The notes: generated by a model not told the origin, from the letters alone. A stretch of 64,000 nucleotides of DNA from the human T2T-CHM13v2.0 reference genome, Homo sapiens (GCF_009914755.1 NC_060938.1), one strand, 5' to 3'; shown: positions 10,810 to 20,344, counted from the first letter of the stretch. Program-made: numbers and translations.

Positions 10810-12980
10810 CAAAAATGAAAGTGAGAAAATTACAACAGGTGCCTCAGAAATACAAAAGATTATAAGAAACCCTCATGAAAAATTTTATGCCAACAAACAA
10901 GATAACCTAAAGGAAACAGATAAATTCCTGGAAAAATACAAACCACCAAGATTGTAAATTTGGTAGATTGTAAATAATGACCACGATTCTGCCAGGAAGA
11001 AATAGAAATCCTGAACAGACATATAACAAGCAAAAGATTGAAGAGGTATTCAAAAACCTTTCAAGAAATAAAAGCCCAGGACCAGATAGCTTCACGGCTA
11101 AATTCTACCAAACATCCAAATAATTAATACCGGTACTCCTAAAACTCTTCCAAAAAATAGAACTAGAGATAATACTTCCAAACACATCTTATAAGACCAG
11201 TATCACCTTGATACAAAAACCAAAGACATTTCAAGAAAAGAAAACAGGCTAATTTCTGTAATGAATATTGATGCAAAAGTGCTCAATAAAATATTAGCAA
11301 ACCTAATCCAGCAATACATCAAAAAGATTGTACATCATCATGAGCAAGTGGGATTTATCCCTGGCATGCAATCCTATTTTAACACATGCATATCAATCAG
11401 TGTAATACATCATTTTATCAGAATGTGAGATAAAAACCACGGGATCATCTTAATTGATGCAGAAAAAGCATTTGACAGAGTCCAACATCTTTTCTTGATA
11501 AAAACTCTCAACAGTTTAGGTATAGAAGGAAAGCTTCTCAACATAATAAAGGTCATCTATGAAAAACACACAGCTAACATTATAATCAATGGGGGAAAAC
11601 TGAAAGCATTTCCATAAGATCCAGTACAAAGCAAGGATGCTCACTCTTGCCACTTCTATTCAACATAGTTCTGGAAGTACTAGCAAGGGCAATCAGAAAA
11701 GAAAAAGAAATAAAGTGTATCTAAACGGAAAGAGAAGAAGTCAAATTATCTCTATTTGCAGATGAAGTATTTCTATATGTAAACAACCTTAATGATTCTT
11801 AAACAATCTTAAAGATTCCATAAAATACTGTTTAAACTAATAATTGAATTCAGTAAAGTTGCAGGATACAAAATCAATATAGAAAAATCAGTAGCATTTT
11901 AAAATATAATTACCTAACTGAAAAATAAATTTAAAAAAACAAATGCCATTTGCAACTGCATCAAGAAATACTTTAGGAGATGAAAAATCTGAAAACTATA
12001 AAACATTGATGAAAGAAATTGAAGATACAAATAAATGGAAAGATATCCTGCGTTCATAGAATAGAAAAATTAATACTGGGCCAGGCACTGTGGCTCATGC
12101 CTGTAATCCCAGCACTTTGGGAGGCCAAGGTGGGTGGATCACCAGGTCAGGATTTCAAGACCAGCCTGGCCAAGATGGTAAAAACCCGTCTCTACTAAAA
12201 ATACAAAAGTCTAACATCTTTTCTGGGTGTGGCAGCAGGTGCCTGTAATCCCAGCTACTCGGGAGGCTGAGGCAGGAGAATCACTTGAACCTGGGTGCCA
12301 GAGGTTGCAGTGTGCTGAGATCACAGCCTGGGCAACAGAGTGAGACTCTTTCTCAAAAGAAAAAGAAAAATTAATACTGTTAAAATTTCCATACTATTCC
12401 AAGCAATATACAGATTAAACACAATTCCTATTAAAATCCTGATCACATTCTTCACAGGAATAGAAAAAACTAATCCTAAAATTAACGTGGAAACATAAAA
12501 GACTCCAAATAGCTAAAATAATTCTGAAAAGAAAAAATAAATTTCGAGGCATCACATTTCCTGATTTAAAACTATAGTACAAAGCTATAGTAGTCAGAAC
12601 AGTATGGTACTGAGCTAAAAGCCATCACATAGACCAGTAGAACAGAATAGAGATCTCAGAAATAAATCCAACCATATATGGTAAACTAATTTTTGAAAAG
12701 GGCATCAAGAGGACACAACTGGGAAAGGATAGTCTCTTCAATAAATGGTACTGAGAAAATGGGATTTCCACATGCAGAAAAACAAAGAAACACTTCATCC
12801 ACAAAAATCAACTTATAATGGATAAAAGACTTAACTGTAAGACCAGAAACTACAAAGCCTCCAGAATAAAACATAGGGGAAAATCTCCTGGATATTGGCA
12901 ATTCAAGACCAGATATAAGACCAGAAACTATAAAACCTCCAGAATAAAACATAGGGGAAAATCTCCTGGACACTGGCAAT
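10810..12980 (+). mobile_element. L1M (L1MB-like) ORF2 fragment, 3' truncated
   Basis: RT-region motifs (aaaagcccaggaccagatagcttcac; gatgcagaaaaagcatttgac). Ends abruptly at ...ggcaat with no 3' UTR or poly-A. Confidence 0.9.
12079..12363 (+). mobile_element. AluS inserted in L1
   Basis: Alu consensus; TSD agaaaaattaatactg on both sides. Confidence 0.92.
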
Positions 12981-12985
12981 TCAAG
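12838..12985. repeat. 78-bp-period tandem duplication at the L1/pseudo-exon junction
   Basis: taagaccagaaacta..ggcaattcaag occurs at 12838-12907 and again at 12916-12985. Confidence 0.9.
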
Positions 12986-13057
12986 GAAGACCAAAGGTAC
13001 ACCAAAGTATTCGTATTATTGGGTAAATTCGTGAGTAATTCTTAGAAGGATTTATAC
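12975..13057 (-). pseudogene. K2P pseudo-exon: start of M4, truncated
   Basis: tttttgcctttag|GT ATA.. reads (G)INPSKNYSRIYPIIRILWCTFGLP*IA; compare G.DPSK.Y...YR....IWILLGLAWLA. TGA at 12981-12983 replaces the conserved Trp; the exon then runs into L1. Confidence 0.92.
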
Positions 13058-13425
13058 CTAAAGGCAAAAATCCAATCACATTTAAGTCACCGAAAGTTGA
13101 ATTTTGCCTCTCATCCCCTTTTCCCCTTTATAAGCTATAACACATTAGTATAAACCCACAAAAAGCCTACATGTGGAGTCTAATCACTGACTATTATAGA
13201 TTATTTTACACTAACTGGAAATTAAGAAGTAGCACTTATAAAATGAATATTATATTCAATAAGAATACATAATTATAGTTCTAAATTTATAGTTATAATT
13301 CTCATTTTGAATTTTTTTAGTATCAGATGATTGGAGTTTTAAAAATAGTTTTTGGCCTCCATCCTACTCTAATAGATAACTTCTAAATTTCTAGTTATAC
13401 TTTTATCTAAAATTCTGTTGATTCT

Positions 13426-13717
13426 GGCTGGGCATGGTGGCTCACACCTGTAATCCCAGCACTTTGGGAGGTGGAGGTGGGTGGATTACTCGAGATCAGG
13501 AGTTTGAGACCAGGCTGGCCAAGATGGTGAAATCTGGTCTCTACTAAAAATGCAAAAATTAGCTGGGTGTGTTGGTGGACACCTGTAATTCTAGCTACTC
13601 GGGAGGCTGAGGCAGGAGAATCGCTTGAACCTGAGAGGCAGAGGTTGCGGTGGGTCGAGATGGCACCACTACACTCCAGTCTGGGCGACAGAGCAAGACT
13701 CCCTCTCAAAAAAAAAA
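13426..13717 (+). mobile_element. AluS in the last intron of the pseudogene
   Basis: Alu consensus; TSD tctgttgattct. Confidence 0.93.
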
Positions 13718-17649: not shown

Positions 17650-17789
17650 CTGATGGATGCTAGGAGACAAATGCTCAATATGACTACTCCTTGGAACATG
17701 TGCTTTTGGTGCATTGTTTTATTTGGTGCATAATATTTTGTTATGACAGCCCCGGCAGCACACACAGCATTTAAGATCTTATGATCTTA

Positions 17790-18110
17790 AATGTATGATC
17801 CAGCCACTTTACACCCAGGAATTTCTCCTAAGGAAATGACCAGAAAAGTGAGAAAGATGGAAGTATATCACTGAAGCATTATTTGTGAGTGAAAAATTGG
17901 AACTAACATAAGTGTCTAACATTACAAGGAATTTACTGAGTAAAATGAAATGATAAAATACTTTTCAATCTTTAAGAACTGCAGTGTGAAAGTATATTCA
18001 ATGATATGGAAAATTAATAATCATACATTGCTGAATTTTAAAAAGGCTTATGTTGTGTGTTCAGCTATAACCATTCATAACACCTATTTATGGGAAAAAG
18101 AAAAATGAAA
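17790..18110 (+). mobile_element. L1ME-like 3' fragment
   Basis: tgatccagccacttttacacccaggaatttctcctaaggaaat..agcattatttgt. Confidence 0.55.
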
Positions 18111-20164
18111 AAAATGCTATTTAGCACATAGTCAAGCTTGAATAATCCTTTCTGTTACTGTTGGATGAGCCAATCCCTATTACTGCATCTAATTTTAATT
18201 TACACATATTGGTATTTGCTGCCTTAGGCACAGCACAAAATTTAACAAAGTCTTGTTTCTCTAAATTGTGAATTTGGGGTTGCTTTTGTCTAAACATATT
18301 ACACACACACATAATGATGACGTAAAGAAATCTGTCCCTTCGTGCTTATGGCCCTTAAGTTCAATTTTTATTTTCAATGATATAAAAAGGAAAAAAGAAT
18401 GCAACATCACAAAACAGAAAAAGAAAAAAGAACGCTATGCCAGAGTCTCACAGTTGTTCATGAGATTTGCACAAAAGTTCCCTTGGCTGCCTGTGGTCAT
18501 ATTTTAGACAGCCTGGCAATGTCAAAGCCATTTCAACAAATGAGAAGCTCATGGCCATTTGAAGTCATTTCTAAACTCATCATATAAATTCACAGTTTGC
18601 CTTAACTCCCATTTGGTTAAGAGAAAACAATTTGTTTTAAGAATAAAAGAAAAATAGGCTTATTGACTGTTTTCGGGACTGCAAAATAAGGGCTATCTCC
18701 ATTCCTCAGGATAGTTGGTATTTTAATTCTATTAGGAGATAAAAATCGCAGAACATCAAAGAGAGTGGTCAAACGGTTTCACCTCCCTTAATTCTCTATT
18801 AAACAAGACCTTTGACCGCTGCGTAACTGCCTAAAGCTAGGATCCTTCAACTGCCCTGGCTCACAGCTGGAGTGGCTCACTGGGACAGGGGAGGAGATGA
18901 CAAAATGCAGGCCCACCATTCAGCCAGGCCTCTGTGAGCACCACCAGGCTCTGCACCGAGGGAGATAGGAGTCAGATCTCCATGTTCCTTTCTTCAAGGC
19001 AGAAACCACAGGTCATGGAGATATCCAGTCCCAAAACTCTTACCTTATGTGGGCCCCTGGATTCCAAGATTCTCCCGATTCTTTAACCAAAATATTACAA
19101 GCAAATGAGAATGATTTCTAAACAAATAGGATCATTTTGTTGGGAAGTTTGTAGGCATCACATTCACCTCCATAAGCGAGAACATGCAGGCTATTTTTAA
19201 TAAGGGAAAATAGATCTGAGCATGCCATACTCAGAAACAGCAGTTATTACTTATTAAACTCCTATGTTGCCAGGAGAAGGAAAATTCCGTGGCAGTGCCG
19301 GAGGTCTCTGACAGTCTAAACTGGTGTTTTCCAGGAACCTCCTGAGTGTCTTCCACAGCCACTACCTTAAACTATGCTGACTGTTTTTGTAAACCCTAAT
19401 GGTTCTCAGTTGATAACAAAATATGCTAGAATTGTCTGAAGTTTAGTAGAAACCTATAGTAACTTTTTGTTTTTGAATCACAAAATTCTCTAGGTAAGCT
19501 CTAGCTAAATTCCAGAGAAACTTGTGGACATTACAGTTCTATCAGGAGTCCTGGGGAGTCTGGCTAGTCTGGCTTTGCCACTTATCCCAGTACGTTGGGA
19601 AACTAGGTAGAAATACCACTGCTGAGTCTACCTACTAAAGGGAAAAGGTGCACAGAATTTGTTATGGAAGAGACAAATGATCAAAAATTCAAAATAAGAG
19701 AGAAGCTGCATATACTATTGAGATGCCATCTTAAAAATACAAGCAGGGTCTGGATTTCCAGGATGAAGGAGTTATGGCTCATGTAGATAAAGTTTCATGT
19801 TACTTTAAAAAATTTAAATGATTGGCATCATTTAAAACATTTTTTTAAAAAAGTAAACTAAAAATAAGACTTCTCTTTTGGCCCTCAAAAAATTAATTAG
19901 AGATATGCCCTGCTCTGTAATTTTCCCCTCACCTATAACTATCTTACTCCTTTGCATTCTCTTGCTGTTGTCTTTCTGTCTTCTGCCAGTATCGGGACTT
20001 ATCTTTTATTTATTCTCATCAAATGAAGGAAAAACTGGTGCTATTATTTATATACATTTAGGAAAATACATAGGACACCAATCTATACAATCTTTTATCT
20101 ACAGCACTCTTTCAACACAGACAGCAAATTTAAAACTCCAAAACAAAGCCCCTTCATCTCTTAC

Positions 20165-20344
20165 CTGTAAAGATTTCAACTTCTGTAGTTGTGTCAGCAT
20201 AAGCTGCTTTGGCCTCTCAAATGGAATTGTTCAGCACTTCATGAATGTCTGTCTCCAAAATTTGAAATATTTTTGCCCCCATCAAGTAATAGCTCACAAA
20301 AGCCATCATCAGTATGCATTTAGAGGTTTAAGAAACAAACAATT
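20165..20344 (-). pseudogene. K2P pseudo-exon: M1 and cap
   Basis: Translates ..SKCILMMAFVSYYLMGAKIFQILETDIHEVLNNSI*EAKAAYADTTTEVEIFT, compared with the K2P M1 motif YLLLGATIFQLLE. TGA at 20217-20219; donor ACAG|gtaaga with GT at 20164-20163. The 5' boundary is uncertain (acceptor ttttctaatag at 20345, or in-frame ATGs at 20381 or 20309). Confidence 0.85.

What the first reader, a model, noticed from the sequence alone, without database searches (positions are those of the whole stretch)
12975..20344. Fossil two-pore-domain K+ channel gene (TALK/KCNK16-like): candidate lost K2P paralogue
Seen: four minus-strand exons in the correct order (20165-20344, 17483-17649, 13776-13933, 12975-13057) with canonical splice dinucleotides. 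They give M1 (YYLMGAKIFQILE), GYxSIAP..GQILCIFCALLxIP (M2), M3 plus GWTY..GLYFALTLSIIGFGDYVLG (P2), and GINPSKNY..IY..I..LWCTFGL (M4). Established: TALK-group genes (KCNK5/16/17) have an intron inside the first Gly of the P1 GYG, a phase-0 intron after M2, and an intron inside the Gly after GFGDYV; all three are reproduced here. Inference: retained introns rule out a retrocopy. The roughly half-diverged protein, AT-rich codons and ancient repeats inside the introns (Tigger1, L2, L1ME) argue for an old, separate gene rather than a recent duplicate, so it may be a channel that is intact in other mammals and dead in human. The ORF track shows only two pieces in the right frame. I cannot tell whether it is already annotated.
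Basis: partly seen in the sequence, partly recalled or inferred. Interest (0 to 1): 0.92.

Follow-up and report, generated by a model that had tools for sequence, protein, structure and literature searches.

The report
Dead human KCNK16-like potassium channel gene
This stretch of human chromosome 14 holds the decayed remains of a two-pore potassium channel gene (KCNK16-like) that database models predict as a full-length protein in cattle, horses, bats and armadillos; it died long ago in our lineage and is now annotated only as a non-coding RNA.

Summary
Minus-strand pieces at 20165-20344, 17483-17649, 13776-13933 and 12975-13057 encode recognisable two-pore K+ channel (K2P) segments. They are not a copy of human KCNK5, KCNK16 or KCNK17 (33-38% identity). 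They are the human remnant of KCNK16L, named in 2013 and reported then as absent from primates and rodents.

- **Similarity:** the relic is 55-68% identical to full-length KCNK16-like protein models of rhino, horse, armadillo, pig, cow and bats.
- **Tree position:** it sits where the species tree predicts, inside the placental KCNK16L clade (100/100). AU tests reject KCNK16 or KCNK17 membership.
- **Damage:** three in-frame stops, at least two frameshifts, both selectivity filters mutated, exon 2 not significantly detectable, and exon 5 cut off against an old L1.
the M1 exon is exon 1. It joined a now-lost exon 2, not the GYG exon.
- **Transcription:** RefSeq lncRNA LOC107984692 shares three of the relic's exon boundaries.
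- **Second relic:** an even more decayed exon 1 of a sister paralogue lies 10.4 kb outside the window.

This is a previously undescribed unitary pseudogene of a known gene, and of moderate interest. Synteny, the date of loss and function of the intact orthologues could not be tested directly.

The parts
20165..20344 (-). Exon 1 remnant of KCNK16L copy A, encoding M1 and the first cap helix. It ends at a CAG|GTAAGA-type donor at 20165. Compared with the orthologues it carries TAA at 20328-20330, TGA at 20217-20219 in place of a Leu codon, 5 missing codons in the cap helix, and 2 missing nt just before the donor. The true start codon was not resolved.
   Evidence: 59-63% identity to rhino, horse and armadillo; E down to 4e-14; E = 8e-12.
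18981..19148 (-). Single-copy intronic segment. It is homologous to the alternative 5' exon of the predicted donkey KCNK16-like isoform X2 (P0001, residues 12-67) and carries two TAA stops in human.
   Evidence: 61% over 54 aa, E = 8e-16 within the window. (the only place in the human genome that matches, E = 8e-13).
18511..18552 (-). Weak candidate for the 3' end of exon 2 (end of pore helix 1 and start of filter 1): MSFSFVEMALTLPG. It is followed by GC rather than a GT donor. Not statistically secure.
   Evidence: top hit in the whole window for a 14-column placental profile (27.0 against 25.5 for the next), on the right strand and in the right intron. A frameshift-tolerant scan did not rank it. 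hmmsearch gave E = 2.6.
17483..17649 (-). Exon 3: second half of filter 1, M2 and the M2-M3 linker, 55 codons with no stop. The acceptor splits the Gly codon (phase 1) and the donor is phase 0. The filter reads GYK instead of GYG, and LLGIP has become LLRIP.
   Evidence: 66-68% to horse, pig and donkey; E down to 1e-19; E = 5e-19.
13776..13933 (-). Exon 4: M3, pore helix 2 and filter 2. It starts in phase 0 (KQVKIYRLFFF, 13901-13933), then shifts frame at 13900 (net loss of 8 nt against the orthologues) and continues GLLIF...GFGDYVL. One codon is missing in YFA-LTL, and the filter Thr is replaced, giving IIGFG. The donor splits a Gly codon.
   Evidence: 72-75% to horse and rhino; E = 2e-17.
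12975..13057 (-). Proximal part of exon 5: the P2-M4 loop and the start of M4 (GINPSKNYSRIYPIIRILWCTFGLP-stop-IA). TGA at 12981-12983 replaces the Trp found in the orthologues. Homology ends at 12975.
   Evidence: E = 1e-5; score 77 against a background of about 27.
12838..12985 (.). 78-bp tandem duplication (1.9 copies, 94% alike) spanning the junction between the exon-5 stump and the L1-type repeat. The junction therefore formed before the duplication.
11000..12974 (+). Old L1-type repeat that abuts the exon-5 stump. It is read antisense on the gene strand, has no poly(A) at the junction, and contains an Alu at about 12085-12375. It continues below 11000. The distal part of M4 and the C-terminal tail were not found beyond it.
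   Evidence: sequence. (7609 candidate copies in the genome; the best of the 40 scored are 74-79% identical). (no distal exon 5 anywhere in the window).
13833..20732 (-). RefSeq lncRNA LOC107984692. Its exon boundaries at 20165 (donor), 17483 (donor) and 13933 (acceptor) coincide with the relic's exon 1, exon 3 and exon 4 splice sites.
   Evidence: Annotation supplied with the finding, compared.

Best explanation
Window 12975-20344 (T2T chr14:53,270,975-53,278,344, minus strand) is a unitary pseudogene.

**What it is.** It is the in-place, intron-containing remnant of the human orthologue of KCNK16L, annotated in other species as 'potassium channel subfamily K member 16-like'. KCNK16L is a fourth member of the TALK group of two-pore K+ channels, alongside KCNK5, KCNK16 and KCNK17. 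Database gene models predict a full-length protein in several Laurasiatherian mammals, armadillo, marsupials, monotremes, lizards and amphibians.

**What happened.** In the human lineage the gene lost constraint long ago. Inference: this was near the base of Euarchontoglires or early in primate history. It has since accumulated stops, frameshifts, filter-destroying substitutions, decay or loss of exon 2, and truncation of exon 5 against an old L1.

**What it does now.** It cannot make a channel. RefSeq annotates a spliced non-coding RNA (LOC107984692) whose exon boundaries coincide with three of the old splice sites.

**Shown:** identity, lesions, phylogenetic position, shared intron positions.
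**Inferred:** timing of the loss, and that the old promoter still drives the transcript.
For: **K2P identity**
- PDB and Pfam matches identify the pieces as K2P.

**Not a copy of a human gene**
- In the human genome the best paralogue matches are only 63%, 50% and 48% for exon 4 (KCNK17, KCNK16, KCNK5) and 42% for exon 3. Exon 1 has no paralogue match at all.

**Closest relatives are KCNK16-like proteins**
- A search of 1.84 billion cluster representatives puts a donkey KCNK16-like protein first, at 74%.
- The cow KCNK16-like protein retrieves named orthologues in cow, reindeer, pig, rhino, horse, armadillo, bats, marsupials, monotremes, lizards and amphibians. It retrieves none from primates, rodents or lagomorphs. 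KCNK17 searches of the same database return dozens of primates and rodents.
- tblastn and profile matches for four exons range from E = 1e-5 to 5e-19.
- Over 187 aligned columns, identity is 68% to rhino, 66% horse, 64% armadillo, 63% pig, 55-57% cow, reindeer and bats, 44% marsupial and monotreme, and 38% human KCNK16.

**Phylogeny**
- In the careful ML tree the relic lies inside the placental KCNK16L clade (100/100). It is sister to Laurasiatheria (99/91), with armadillo outside (98/92). This matches the species tree.
- AU tests reject forcing it into the KCNK16 clade (delta lnL 130, p = 0.0003) or the KCNK17 clade (delta lnL 131, p = 0.002).

**Gene structure and locus**
- Intron positions and phases match human KCNK5, 16 and 17.
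- A donkey transcript's alternative 5' exon matches a single-copy human sequence lying between relic exons 1 and 3.

**Decay**
- Lesions were verified base by base.
- The relic differs at 15 of 78 positions that are invariant in eight intact placental orthologues. The figure is 0-4% for each Laurasiatherian.

**Literature**
- Lovell et al. 2013 (PMC3711925) named KCNK16L and reported it absent from rodents and primates.
Against: - **Synteny was not tested directly.** No non-human vertebrate genome DNA was available. Support is indirect: the donkey intronic-exon match, and the cow protein lying on a 103,308,737-bp contig. From memory that is BTA10, which shares synteny with human chromosome 14.
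- **The orthologues may not all be working genes.** The 'intact' orthologues are gene predictions. Their function as channels has never been tested, and the placental clade evolves fast (stem branch 0.83).
- **Branch length alone is uninformative.** The relic's end branch (0.35) is no longer than that of some intact lineages (0.17-0.5), so it does not prove long neutrality.
- **Parts of the gene are unresolved.** Exon 2 and the distal part of exon 5 could not be located with significance, and the start codon is unresolved.
- **GENCODE and HGNC were not checked.** They could not be consulted, so the locus may already carry a pseudogene label there.
Confidence: 0.9

Rival explanations
1. It is a duplicated, non-processed pseudogene copied from one of the human 6p21 TALK genes (KCNK16, KCNK17 or KCNK5).
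For: The exon-4 piece is 63% identical to the KCNK17 exon, and the intron positions are shared.
Against: - Overall identity to human KCNK16 and KCNK17 is only 33-38%, against 55-68% to placental KCNK16-like proteins.
- The tree separates the KCNK16L, KCNK17 and KCNK16 clades, each with 99-100% support by at least one of the two measures.
- AU tests reject both groupings.
Confidence: 0.01
2. It is a processed retrocopy of a K2P mRNA.
For: None beyond the coding similarity.
Against: The pieces are spread over 7.4 kb. They are separated by introns at the family's conserved positions and phases, with AG and GT boundaries.
Confidence: 0.005
3. The locus is no longer a channel gene but has been taken over as a functional long non-coding RNA gene (LOC107984692), and that function explains why the splice sites and the exon 3 reading frame survive.
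For: - RefSeq annotates a spliced transcript whose boundaries coincide with three ancestral splice sites (annotation supplied with the finding).
- Exon 3 keeps 55 codons with no stop.
Against: - No Rfam family matches, and no paper mentions the locus.
- Substitutions are spread over conserved and variable positions alike.
- A 55-codon open stretch in AT-rich neutral DNA is not remarkable.
- Weak transcription of dead genes is common (general knowledge).
Confidence: 0.07
4. The similarity is chance or repeat-derived, and no gene ever existed here.
For: The individual Pfam matches fall below the gathering threshold.
Against: - Four collinear pieces lie on one strand in the correct order, with E-values down to 5e-19.
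- The pieces are single-copy in the genome.
- The tree position is exactly the one the species tree predicts.
Confidence: 0.001

Closest known systems
KCNK16L / 'potassium channel subfamily K member 16-like' (Lovell et al. 2013, BMC Genomics 14:470, PMC3711925; NCBI gene models in cow, horse, armadillo, bats, marsupials and others)
   Same: - The relic is its human orthologue by tree position.
- It is 55-68% identical to the placental proteins.
- It has the same exon structure.
- The paper places the bird genes on chromosome 5. From memory, that chromosome shares synteny with human chromosome 14.
   Different: - The human copy is dead.
- The paper stated that no orthologue or BLAT match exists in human or rodents. 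The remnant described here was therefore not reported.
- The paper described KCNK16L as first duplicated in frogs. In my trees some fish and caecilian proteins named '16-like' group with true KCNK16 instead.
KCNK17 (TALK-2), KCNK16 (TALK-1) and KCNK5 (TASK-2), the alkaline-activated K2P cluster on human 6p21
   Same: - Same subfamily.
- Same phase-1 introns in the Gly of GYG and in the Gly after GFGDYV-x.
- Same overall layout: M1, cap, P1, M2, M3, P2, M4.
   Different: - They form separate clades.
- The basic extracellular pH-sensor residue is Arg224 in TASK-2, Arg in TALK-1 and Lys in TALK-2 (PMC3026807). In every placental KCNK16L it is replaced by M, V, Q, P, T or A, and by Pro in the relic.
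- The relic has lost both selectivity filters.
Human unitary pseudogenes in general, that is, genes lost in place with intact orthologues elsewhere (for example GULOP; from general knowledge)
   Same: - A single locus with retained introns.
- Multiple disabling lesions.
- No functional human counterpart.
- Full-length orthologues predicted in other mammals.
   Different: - Because rodents appear to lack the gene too (no rodent hits), screens that use mouse as the reference would miss it.
- It is currently labelled a lncRNA in RefSeq.

Membership tests
[quoted passage not shown] | Four transmembrane helices and two pore loops in one subunit, in the order M1-cap-P1-M2-M3-P2-M4 | tested here: inconclusive
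   - Present in order and collinear with orthologues: M1, cap helix 1, the tail of filter 1, M2, M3, pore helix 2, filter 2 and the start of M4.
- Not significantly detectable: cap helix 2, pore helix 1 and most of M4.
[quoted passage not shown] | Selectivity-filter signature T-I/V-G-Y/F/L-G in both pore loops | tested here: not met
   Filter 1 reads G-Y-K and filter 2 reads I-I-G-F-G. All eight intact placental orthologues have TIGYG and TIGFG. This fits a dead gene: it is a descendant of a K2P gene, not a K2P channel.
[quoted passage not shown] | Pfam Ion_trans_2 (PF07885) match at or above the gathering score | tested here: not met
   Two pieces score 17.8 and 17.6 bits against a cut-off of 22.5. 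Each piece is half a domain. The family-specific profile gives E = 5e-19 and 2e-17.
TALK subgroup (KCNK5/16/17 plus KCNK16L) | Groups phylogenetically with the TALK genes rather than with the TASK, TWIK, TREK or THIK genes | tested here: met
   - In the tree rooted on KCNK3/9/15, the relic lies in the clade that holds KCNK16, KCNK17 and KCNK16L.
- The best PDB match for exon 3 is TASK-2.
TALK subgroup (KCNK5/16/17 plus KCNK16L) | Phase-1 introns inside the Gly of the P1 GYG and inside the Gly that follows GFGDYV-x | tested here: met
   Acceptor cag|GT-TAC at 17649, donor TTA-G|gtaggt at 13776 and acceptor tag|GT-ATA at 13057. The positions are identical in human KCNK5, 16 and 17.
TALK subgroup (KCNK5/16/17 plus KCNK16L) | Basic extracellular pH-sensor residue at the position of TASK-2 Arg224 (PMC3026807) | tested here: not met
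   The relic has Pro. Placental KCNK16L proteins have M, V, Q, P, T or A. All 20 non-placental proteins of the KCNK16L clade that cover this position keep Arg or Lys.
Unitary pseudogene | Disabling lesions in an intron-containing locus | tested here: met
   - Three in-frame stops.
- A 2-nt and a net 8-nt frameshift.
- In-frame deletions.
- Exon 5 truncated.
Unitary pseudogene | Not derived from a gene that is still functional in the same genome | tested here: met
   The tree and AU tests place it outside KCNK16, KCNK17 and KCNK5. No other human locus matches better.
Unitary pseudogene | Intact orthologue in other species | tested here: met
   Full-length predicted proteins of 291-308 aa with intact filters exist in cow, reindeer, pig, horse, armadillo and two bats. 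Their function has not been assayed.
Unitary pseudogene | The orthologue lies at the syntenic position | not testable with these tools
   No non-human vertebrate genome was available. Indirect support only:
- A donkey alternative exon matches a single-copy human sequence inside the relic's intron.
- The cow gene sits on a 103.3-Mb contig.
- The bird genes are on chromosome 5.

The most novel reading that the evidence does not exclude
Early placental mammals duplicated KCNK16L into two neighbouring, fast-evolving copies, A and B. Both copies gave up the basic alkaline-sensor residue that defines TALK channel gating, which would make them an uncharacterised K2P subgroup. A is predicted intact in ungulates, bats and armadillo, and B in equids. 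Both copies then decayed side by side in the human lineage, and the promoter and splice sites of A were recycled into the lncRNA LOC107984692.
Probability: 0.35. Interest if true: 0.5.

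Novelty: new member of a known kind. Interest (0 to 1): 0.4.

Why it matters
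**For the human gene catalogue.** Textbooks list 15 human K2P genes. This locus shows that the human lineage once carried a further TALK-type channel gene, and a neighbouring relic suggests a second. The gene was lost by decay in place, not by deletion.

**For annotation.**
- It explains an 'uncharacterised lncRNA' as the transcript of a dead channel gene.
- It corrects the published statement that no trace of KCNK16L exists in the human genome.
- It shows a blind spot of pseudogene screens that use mouse or human as the reference.

**For physiology.** Livestock, horses and bats appear to have a K2P channel, without the usual alkaline sensor, that no one has characterised and that has no human or mouse counterpart. 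This matters when ion-channel pharmacology is carried across species.

The practical importance of the human relic itself is small.

Tried and rejected
**Exon 2**
- tblastn, an exon-2 profile and a home-made frameshift-tolerant protein-to-DNA scan gave nothing significant.
- The only lead is a weak candidate at 18511-18552.

**Distal exon 5 (rest of M4 and the tail)**
- It was not found anywhere in the window or in the 30 kb to its left.
- One weak hit, at chr14:53,255,014, turned out to be L1 antisense sequence.

**Start codon**
- Comparison with the N-termini of cow, horse, armadillo, bat, pig and rhino proteins was inconclusive. The gene models differ on whether a short 5' exon exists.

**Other checks that gave nothing**
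- Pfam on single pieces scored below threshold.
- Rfam gave no match in the window.
- Literature searches for LOC107984692, for 'member 16-like', for K2P gene loss and for BTA10/HSA14 found only Lovell et al. 2013.
- The supplement of that paper does not name the genes flanking KCNK16L.

**A wasted search**
- The third homologue search used a dog protein labelled KCNK16 that is really KCNK17-like. True KCNK16 and KCNK5 rows for the tree were therefore taken from the human genome exons.

**Readings rejected**
- Retrocopy, recent 6p21 duplicate and chance match (see the rival explanations).

**Not attempted**
- dN/dS, because no orthologue DNA was available.
- Repeat classification, because no repeat library was available.

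Full report
**1.
- The P2 piece (13777-13923) finds only K2P channels among solved structures: TREK-1 and TASK-2, E about 5e-6.
- The M2 piece (17483-17647) finds TASK-2 first, E = 0.012.
- Pfam Ion_trans_2 matches both at E = 0.003. At 17.8 and 17.6 bits these are below the gathering score of 22.5, as expected for half-domains.

**2. It is not a copy of a human gene.**
- I searched the whole T2T genome in six frames. The exon-4 piece matches the 6p21 TALK genes at only 63% (KCNK17), 50% (KCNK16) and 48% (KCNK5).
- The exon-3 piece matches KCNK16 at 42%. The exon-1 piece matches nothing but itself.
- The chr6 loci were identified in two ways. The chimpanzee KCNK17 protein aligns to one of them at 95-100% in exons 3-5. 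Another is identical to the TASK-2 sequence in the PDB.

**3. It is the human remnant of KCNK16L.**
- A phmmer search of 1.84 billion cluster representatives with the exon-4 piece put a donkey 'potassium channel subfamily K member 16-like' protein first, at 74%. Everything else was at or below 64%.
- The full-length cow protein (P0023, 291 aa) retrieved proteins with the same name from cow, reindeer, pig, rhino, horse, armadillo, two vesper bats and a leaf-nosed bat. Hyena and sheep gave partial proteins. It also retrieved marsupials, monotremes, lizards and amphibians.
- It retrieved none from primates, rodents or lagomorphs. KCNK17 queries against the same database return dozens of primates and rodents.
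- This gene was named KCNK16L by Lovell et al. 2013 (PMC3711925). They found it in finch and chicken (chromosome 5), lizard, frog, platypus, horse and cow. [quoted passage not shown]
- I found no other paper on it, and none on LOC107984692.

**4. Corrected anatomy.** tblastn with eight placental orthologues and a KCNK16L profile gives four collinear matches, E = 5e-19, 2e-17, 8e-12 and 1e-5, with background above 1.
- *Exon 1 (20165-20344)* encodes M1 and cap helix 1. It carries TAA at 20328-20330. It carries TGA at 20217-20219, where the orthologues have Leu. It is five codons short in the cap helix. It is 2 nt short just before its donor, so it ends in phase 1 instead of the phase 0 seen in KCNK16 and KCNK17.
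In the orthologues about 38 codons lie between them. These form exon 2: cap helix 2, pore helix 1 and the first filter residues.
- *Exon 2* is not significantly detectable. The best candidate is MSFSFVEMALTLPG at 18511-18552. It is the top hit of a 14-column profile in the whole window, and it lies on the right strand in the right intron. Its margin is small (27.0 against 25.5) and it is followed by GC rather than GT.
- *Exon 3 (17483-17649)* has no stop, but its filter reads GYK.
- *Exon 4 (13776-13933)* starts in phase 0 and shifts frame at 13900, a net loss of 8 nt. It also lacks one codon, and its filter reads IIGFG.
- *Exon 5* begins at 13057, has TGA for Trp at 12981-12983, and loses homology at 12975.
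- Beyond 12975 lies an old L1-type repeat. It is read antisense and has no poly(A) at the junction. The best of the 40 copies scored are 74-79% identical, out of 7609 candidates.
- A 78-bp tandem duplication (94% alike) spans that junction, so the junction is older than the duplication.
- The rest of M4 and the tail were not found.

**5. Intron positions.**
- The phase-1 intron inside the Gly of GYG, and the phase-1 intron inside the Gly after GFGDYV-x, are at identical positions in the relic and in human KCNK5, KCNK16 and KCNK17.
- The phase-0 intron after M2 matches KCNK17.

**6. Phylogeny.**
- Over 187 aligned columns the relic is 68% identical to rhino, 66% to horse, 64% to armadillo and 63% to pig. 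It is 55-57% identical to cow, reindeer and bats, and 44% to marsupial and monotreme KCNK16L. It is 38% identical to human KCNK16.
- A careful ML tree (58 rows, LG+C20+F+G4, rooted on KCNK3/9/15) recovers separate KCNK16, KCNK17 and KCNK16L clades.
- The relic lies inside the placental KCNK16L clade (100/100). It is sister to Laurasiatheria (99/91), with armadillo outside (98/92). That is the species tree.
- AU tests reject placing it with KCNK16 (p = 0.0003) or with KCNK17 (p = 0.002).

**7. How long has it been dead?**
- The relic differs at 15 of 78 positions (19%) that are invariant in all eight intact placental orthologues. The changed positions include G->K in filter 1 and T->I in filter 2, and the changes LLGIP->LLRIP and EGW->VGW. 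Each Laurasiatherian differs at 0-4% of such positions, and armadillo at 11%.
- Its end branch is 0.35 substitutions per site.
- From my own rough figures for the neutral human-lineage rate (memory, not computed here), full neutrality since the boreoeutherian ancestor would give about 0.25-0.3.
- The data therefore fit loss of constraint for most of that time, near the base of Euarchontoglires or in early primates. This agrees with the absence of rodent and primate proteins. It remains an inference.
- The placental genes themselves evolve fast (stem branch 0.83), so branch length alone is weak evidence.

**8. Orthology of the locus.**
- Direct synteny could not be tested.
- The predicted donkey isoform X2 (P0001) starts with an alternative exon whose 54 residues match window 18984-19145 at 61%. 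That interval lies between relic exons 1 and 3, and the sequence is single-copy in the human genome. This ties the donkey gene to this very locus.
- The cow protein lies on a 103,308,737-bp contig. From memory that is BTA10, which shares synteny with human chromosome 14.

**9. Present-day activity.**
- RefSeq's lncRNA LOC107984692 (13833-20732) has exon boundaries that coincide with the relic's exon-1 donor (20165), exon-3 donor (17483) and exon-4 acceptor (13933).
- No Rfam family matches the window.
- I regard the RNA as transcription of a dead gene until shown otherwise.

**10. A second relic outside the window.**
- Equids have a second, divergent '16-like' protein (P0186, P0189, P0190).
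- Its exon 1 matches chr14:53,247,476-53,247,655 on the plus strand (L058:9476-9655). That is 10.4 kb left of the window and convergent with the first relic.
- The match is 63% identical, has three in-frame TGA stops and keeps a phase-0 CAG|GTAAGA donor.
- No other exons of it were found in chr14:53,228,001-53,271,000.
- In a quick tree this relic and the horse protein pair (98). Together they are sister to the placental A clade (95). This suggests a local duplication in the placental stem. Both branches are long, so attraction cannot be excluded.

**11. A functional hint about the living orthologues.**
- The basic residue that senses extracellular alkalinisation is Arg224 in TASK-2, Arg in TALK-1 and Lys in TALK-2 (PMC3026807).
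- It is kept as Arg or Lys in all 20 non-placental proteins of the KCNK16L clade that cover this position.
- It is replaced by M, V, Q, P, T or A in all placental KCNK16L-A proteins, by Pro in the relic and by Ser in the horse B copy.
- If the placental channels work, they are unlikely to be gated by external pH in the way other TALK channels are.

**12. Verdict.**
One exon join was wrong.
- The gene is known and its absence from humans was published. To my searches, the human remnant, its lesion map, its lncRNA afterlife and the neighbouring second relic have not been described.
- This is a new member of a known kind (a unitary pseudogene) and is of moderate interest.

Noticed in passing
L058:9476-9655 (chr14:53,247,476-53,247,655, plus strand; 10.4 kb left of the window start): A second K2P relic. 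Only exon 1 (M1 plus cap helix 1) is found, with three in-frame TGA stops and a preserved phase-0 donor. It is 63% identical to a second, divergent 'KCNK16-like' protein of horse and donkey (P0186/P0189/P0190) and is convergent with the relic in the window. A quick tree suggests KCNK16L duplicated in the placental stem.
   Followed up: partly
Alignment column 231 (TASK-2 Arg224); window 13017-13019 in the relic (Pro codon): The TALK extracellular pH-sensor Arg/Lys is kept in KCNK5, 16 and 17 and in all 20 non-placental proteins of the KCNK16L clade that cover this position. It is replaced in every placental KCNK16L (M, V, Q, P, T, A). This coincides with a very long placental stem branch of 0.83.
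   Followed up: partly
window 18981-19148 (-): A single-copy intronic stretch that is used as an alternative first exon in a predicted donkey isoform. That isoform skips exon 2 and so would lack pore helix 1. The human version has two TAA stops.
   Followed up: partly
window 12838-12985: A 78-bp tandem duplication (1.9 copies, 94% alike) that straddles the junction between the exon-5 stump and the L1-type repeat. The lack of a poly(A) at the junction suggests a deletion or rearrangement rather than a simple insertion.
   Followed up: partly
window 13941-14049: A 109-nt purine-rich (AAGG-like) tract on the plus strand, which is a very long polypyrimidine tract on the gene strand. It lies directly upstream of the exon-4 acceptor whose position is an exon boundary of the lncRNA.
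   Followed up: no
window 17569-17571: The RefSeq lncRNA exon listed as 17483-17569 is not preceded by AG (the two bases upstream are TT). Position 17569 may therefore be an alternative transcript start inside relic exon 3 rather than a splice acceptor.
   Followed up: no
Proteins P0128 and P0135 (platypus and echidna KCNK16-like): Both monotreme proteins read G-C-G instead of G-Y-G in the first selectivity filter, and echidna also has TPG for TIG. This is an unusual filter shared by two species.
   Followed up: no
Proteins P0287, P0305, P0143, P0144, P0129, P0150: Database names are unreliable in this subfamily.
- Dog and lynx proteins labelled 'KCNK16' are 72-90% identical to mammalian KCNK17 proteins in the homologue search.
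- Paddlefish and Rhinatrema '16-like' proteins group with true KCNK16.
- A caecilian 'KCNK16' groups with KCNK16L.

   Followed up: partly
window 12085-12375 and 20825-22400: An Alu is inserted in the L1-type repeat downstream of the relic. Further L1 open-reading-frame fragments lie just upstream of relic exon 1.
   Followed up: no
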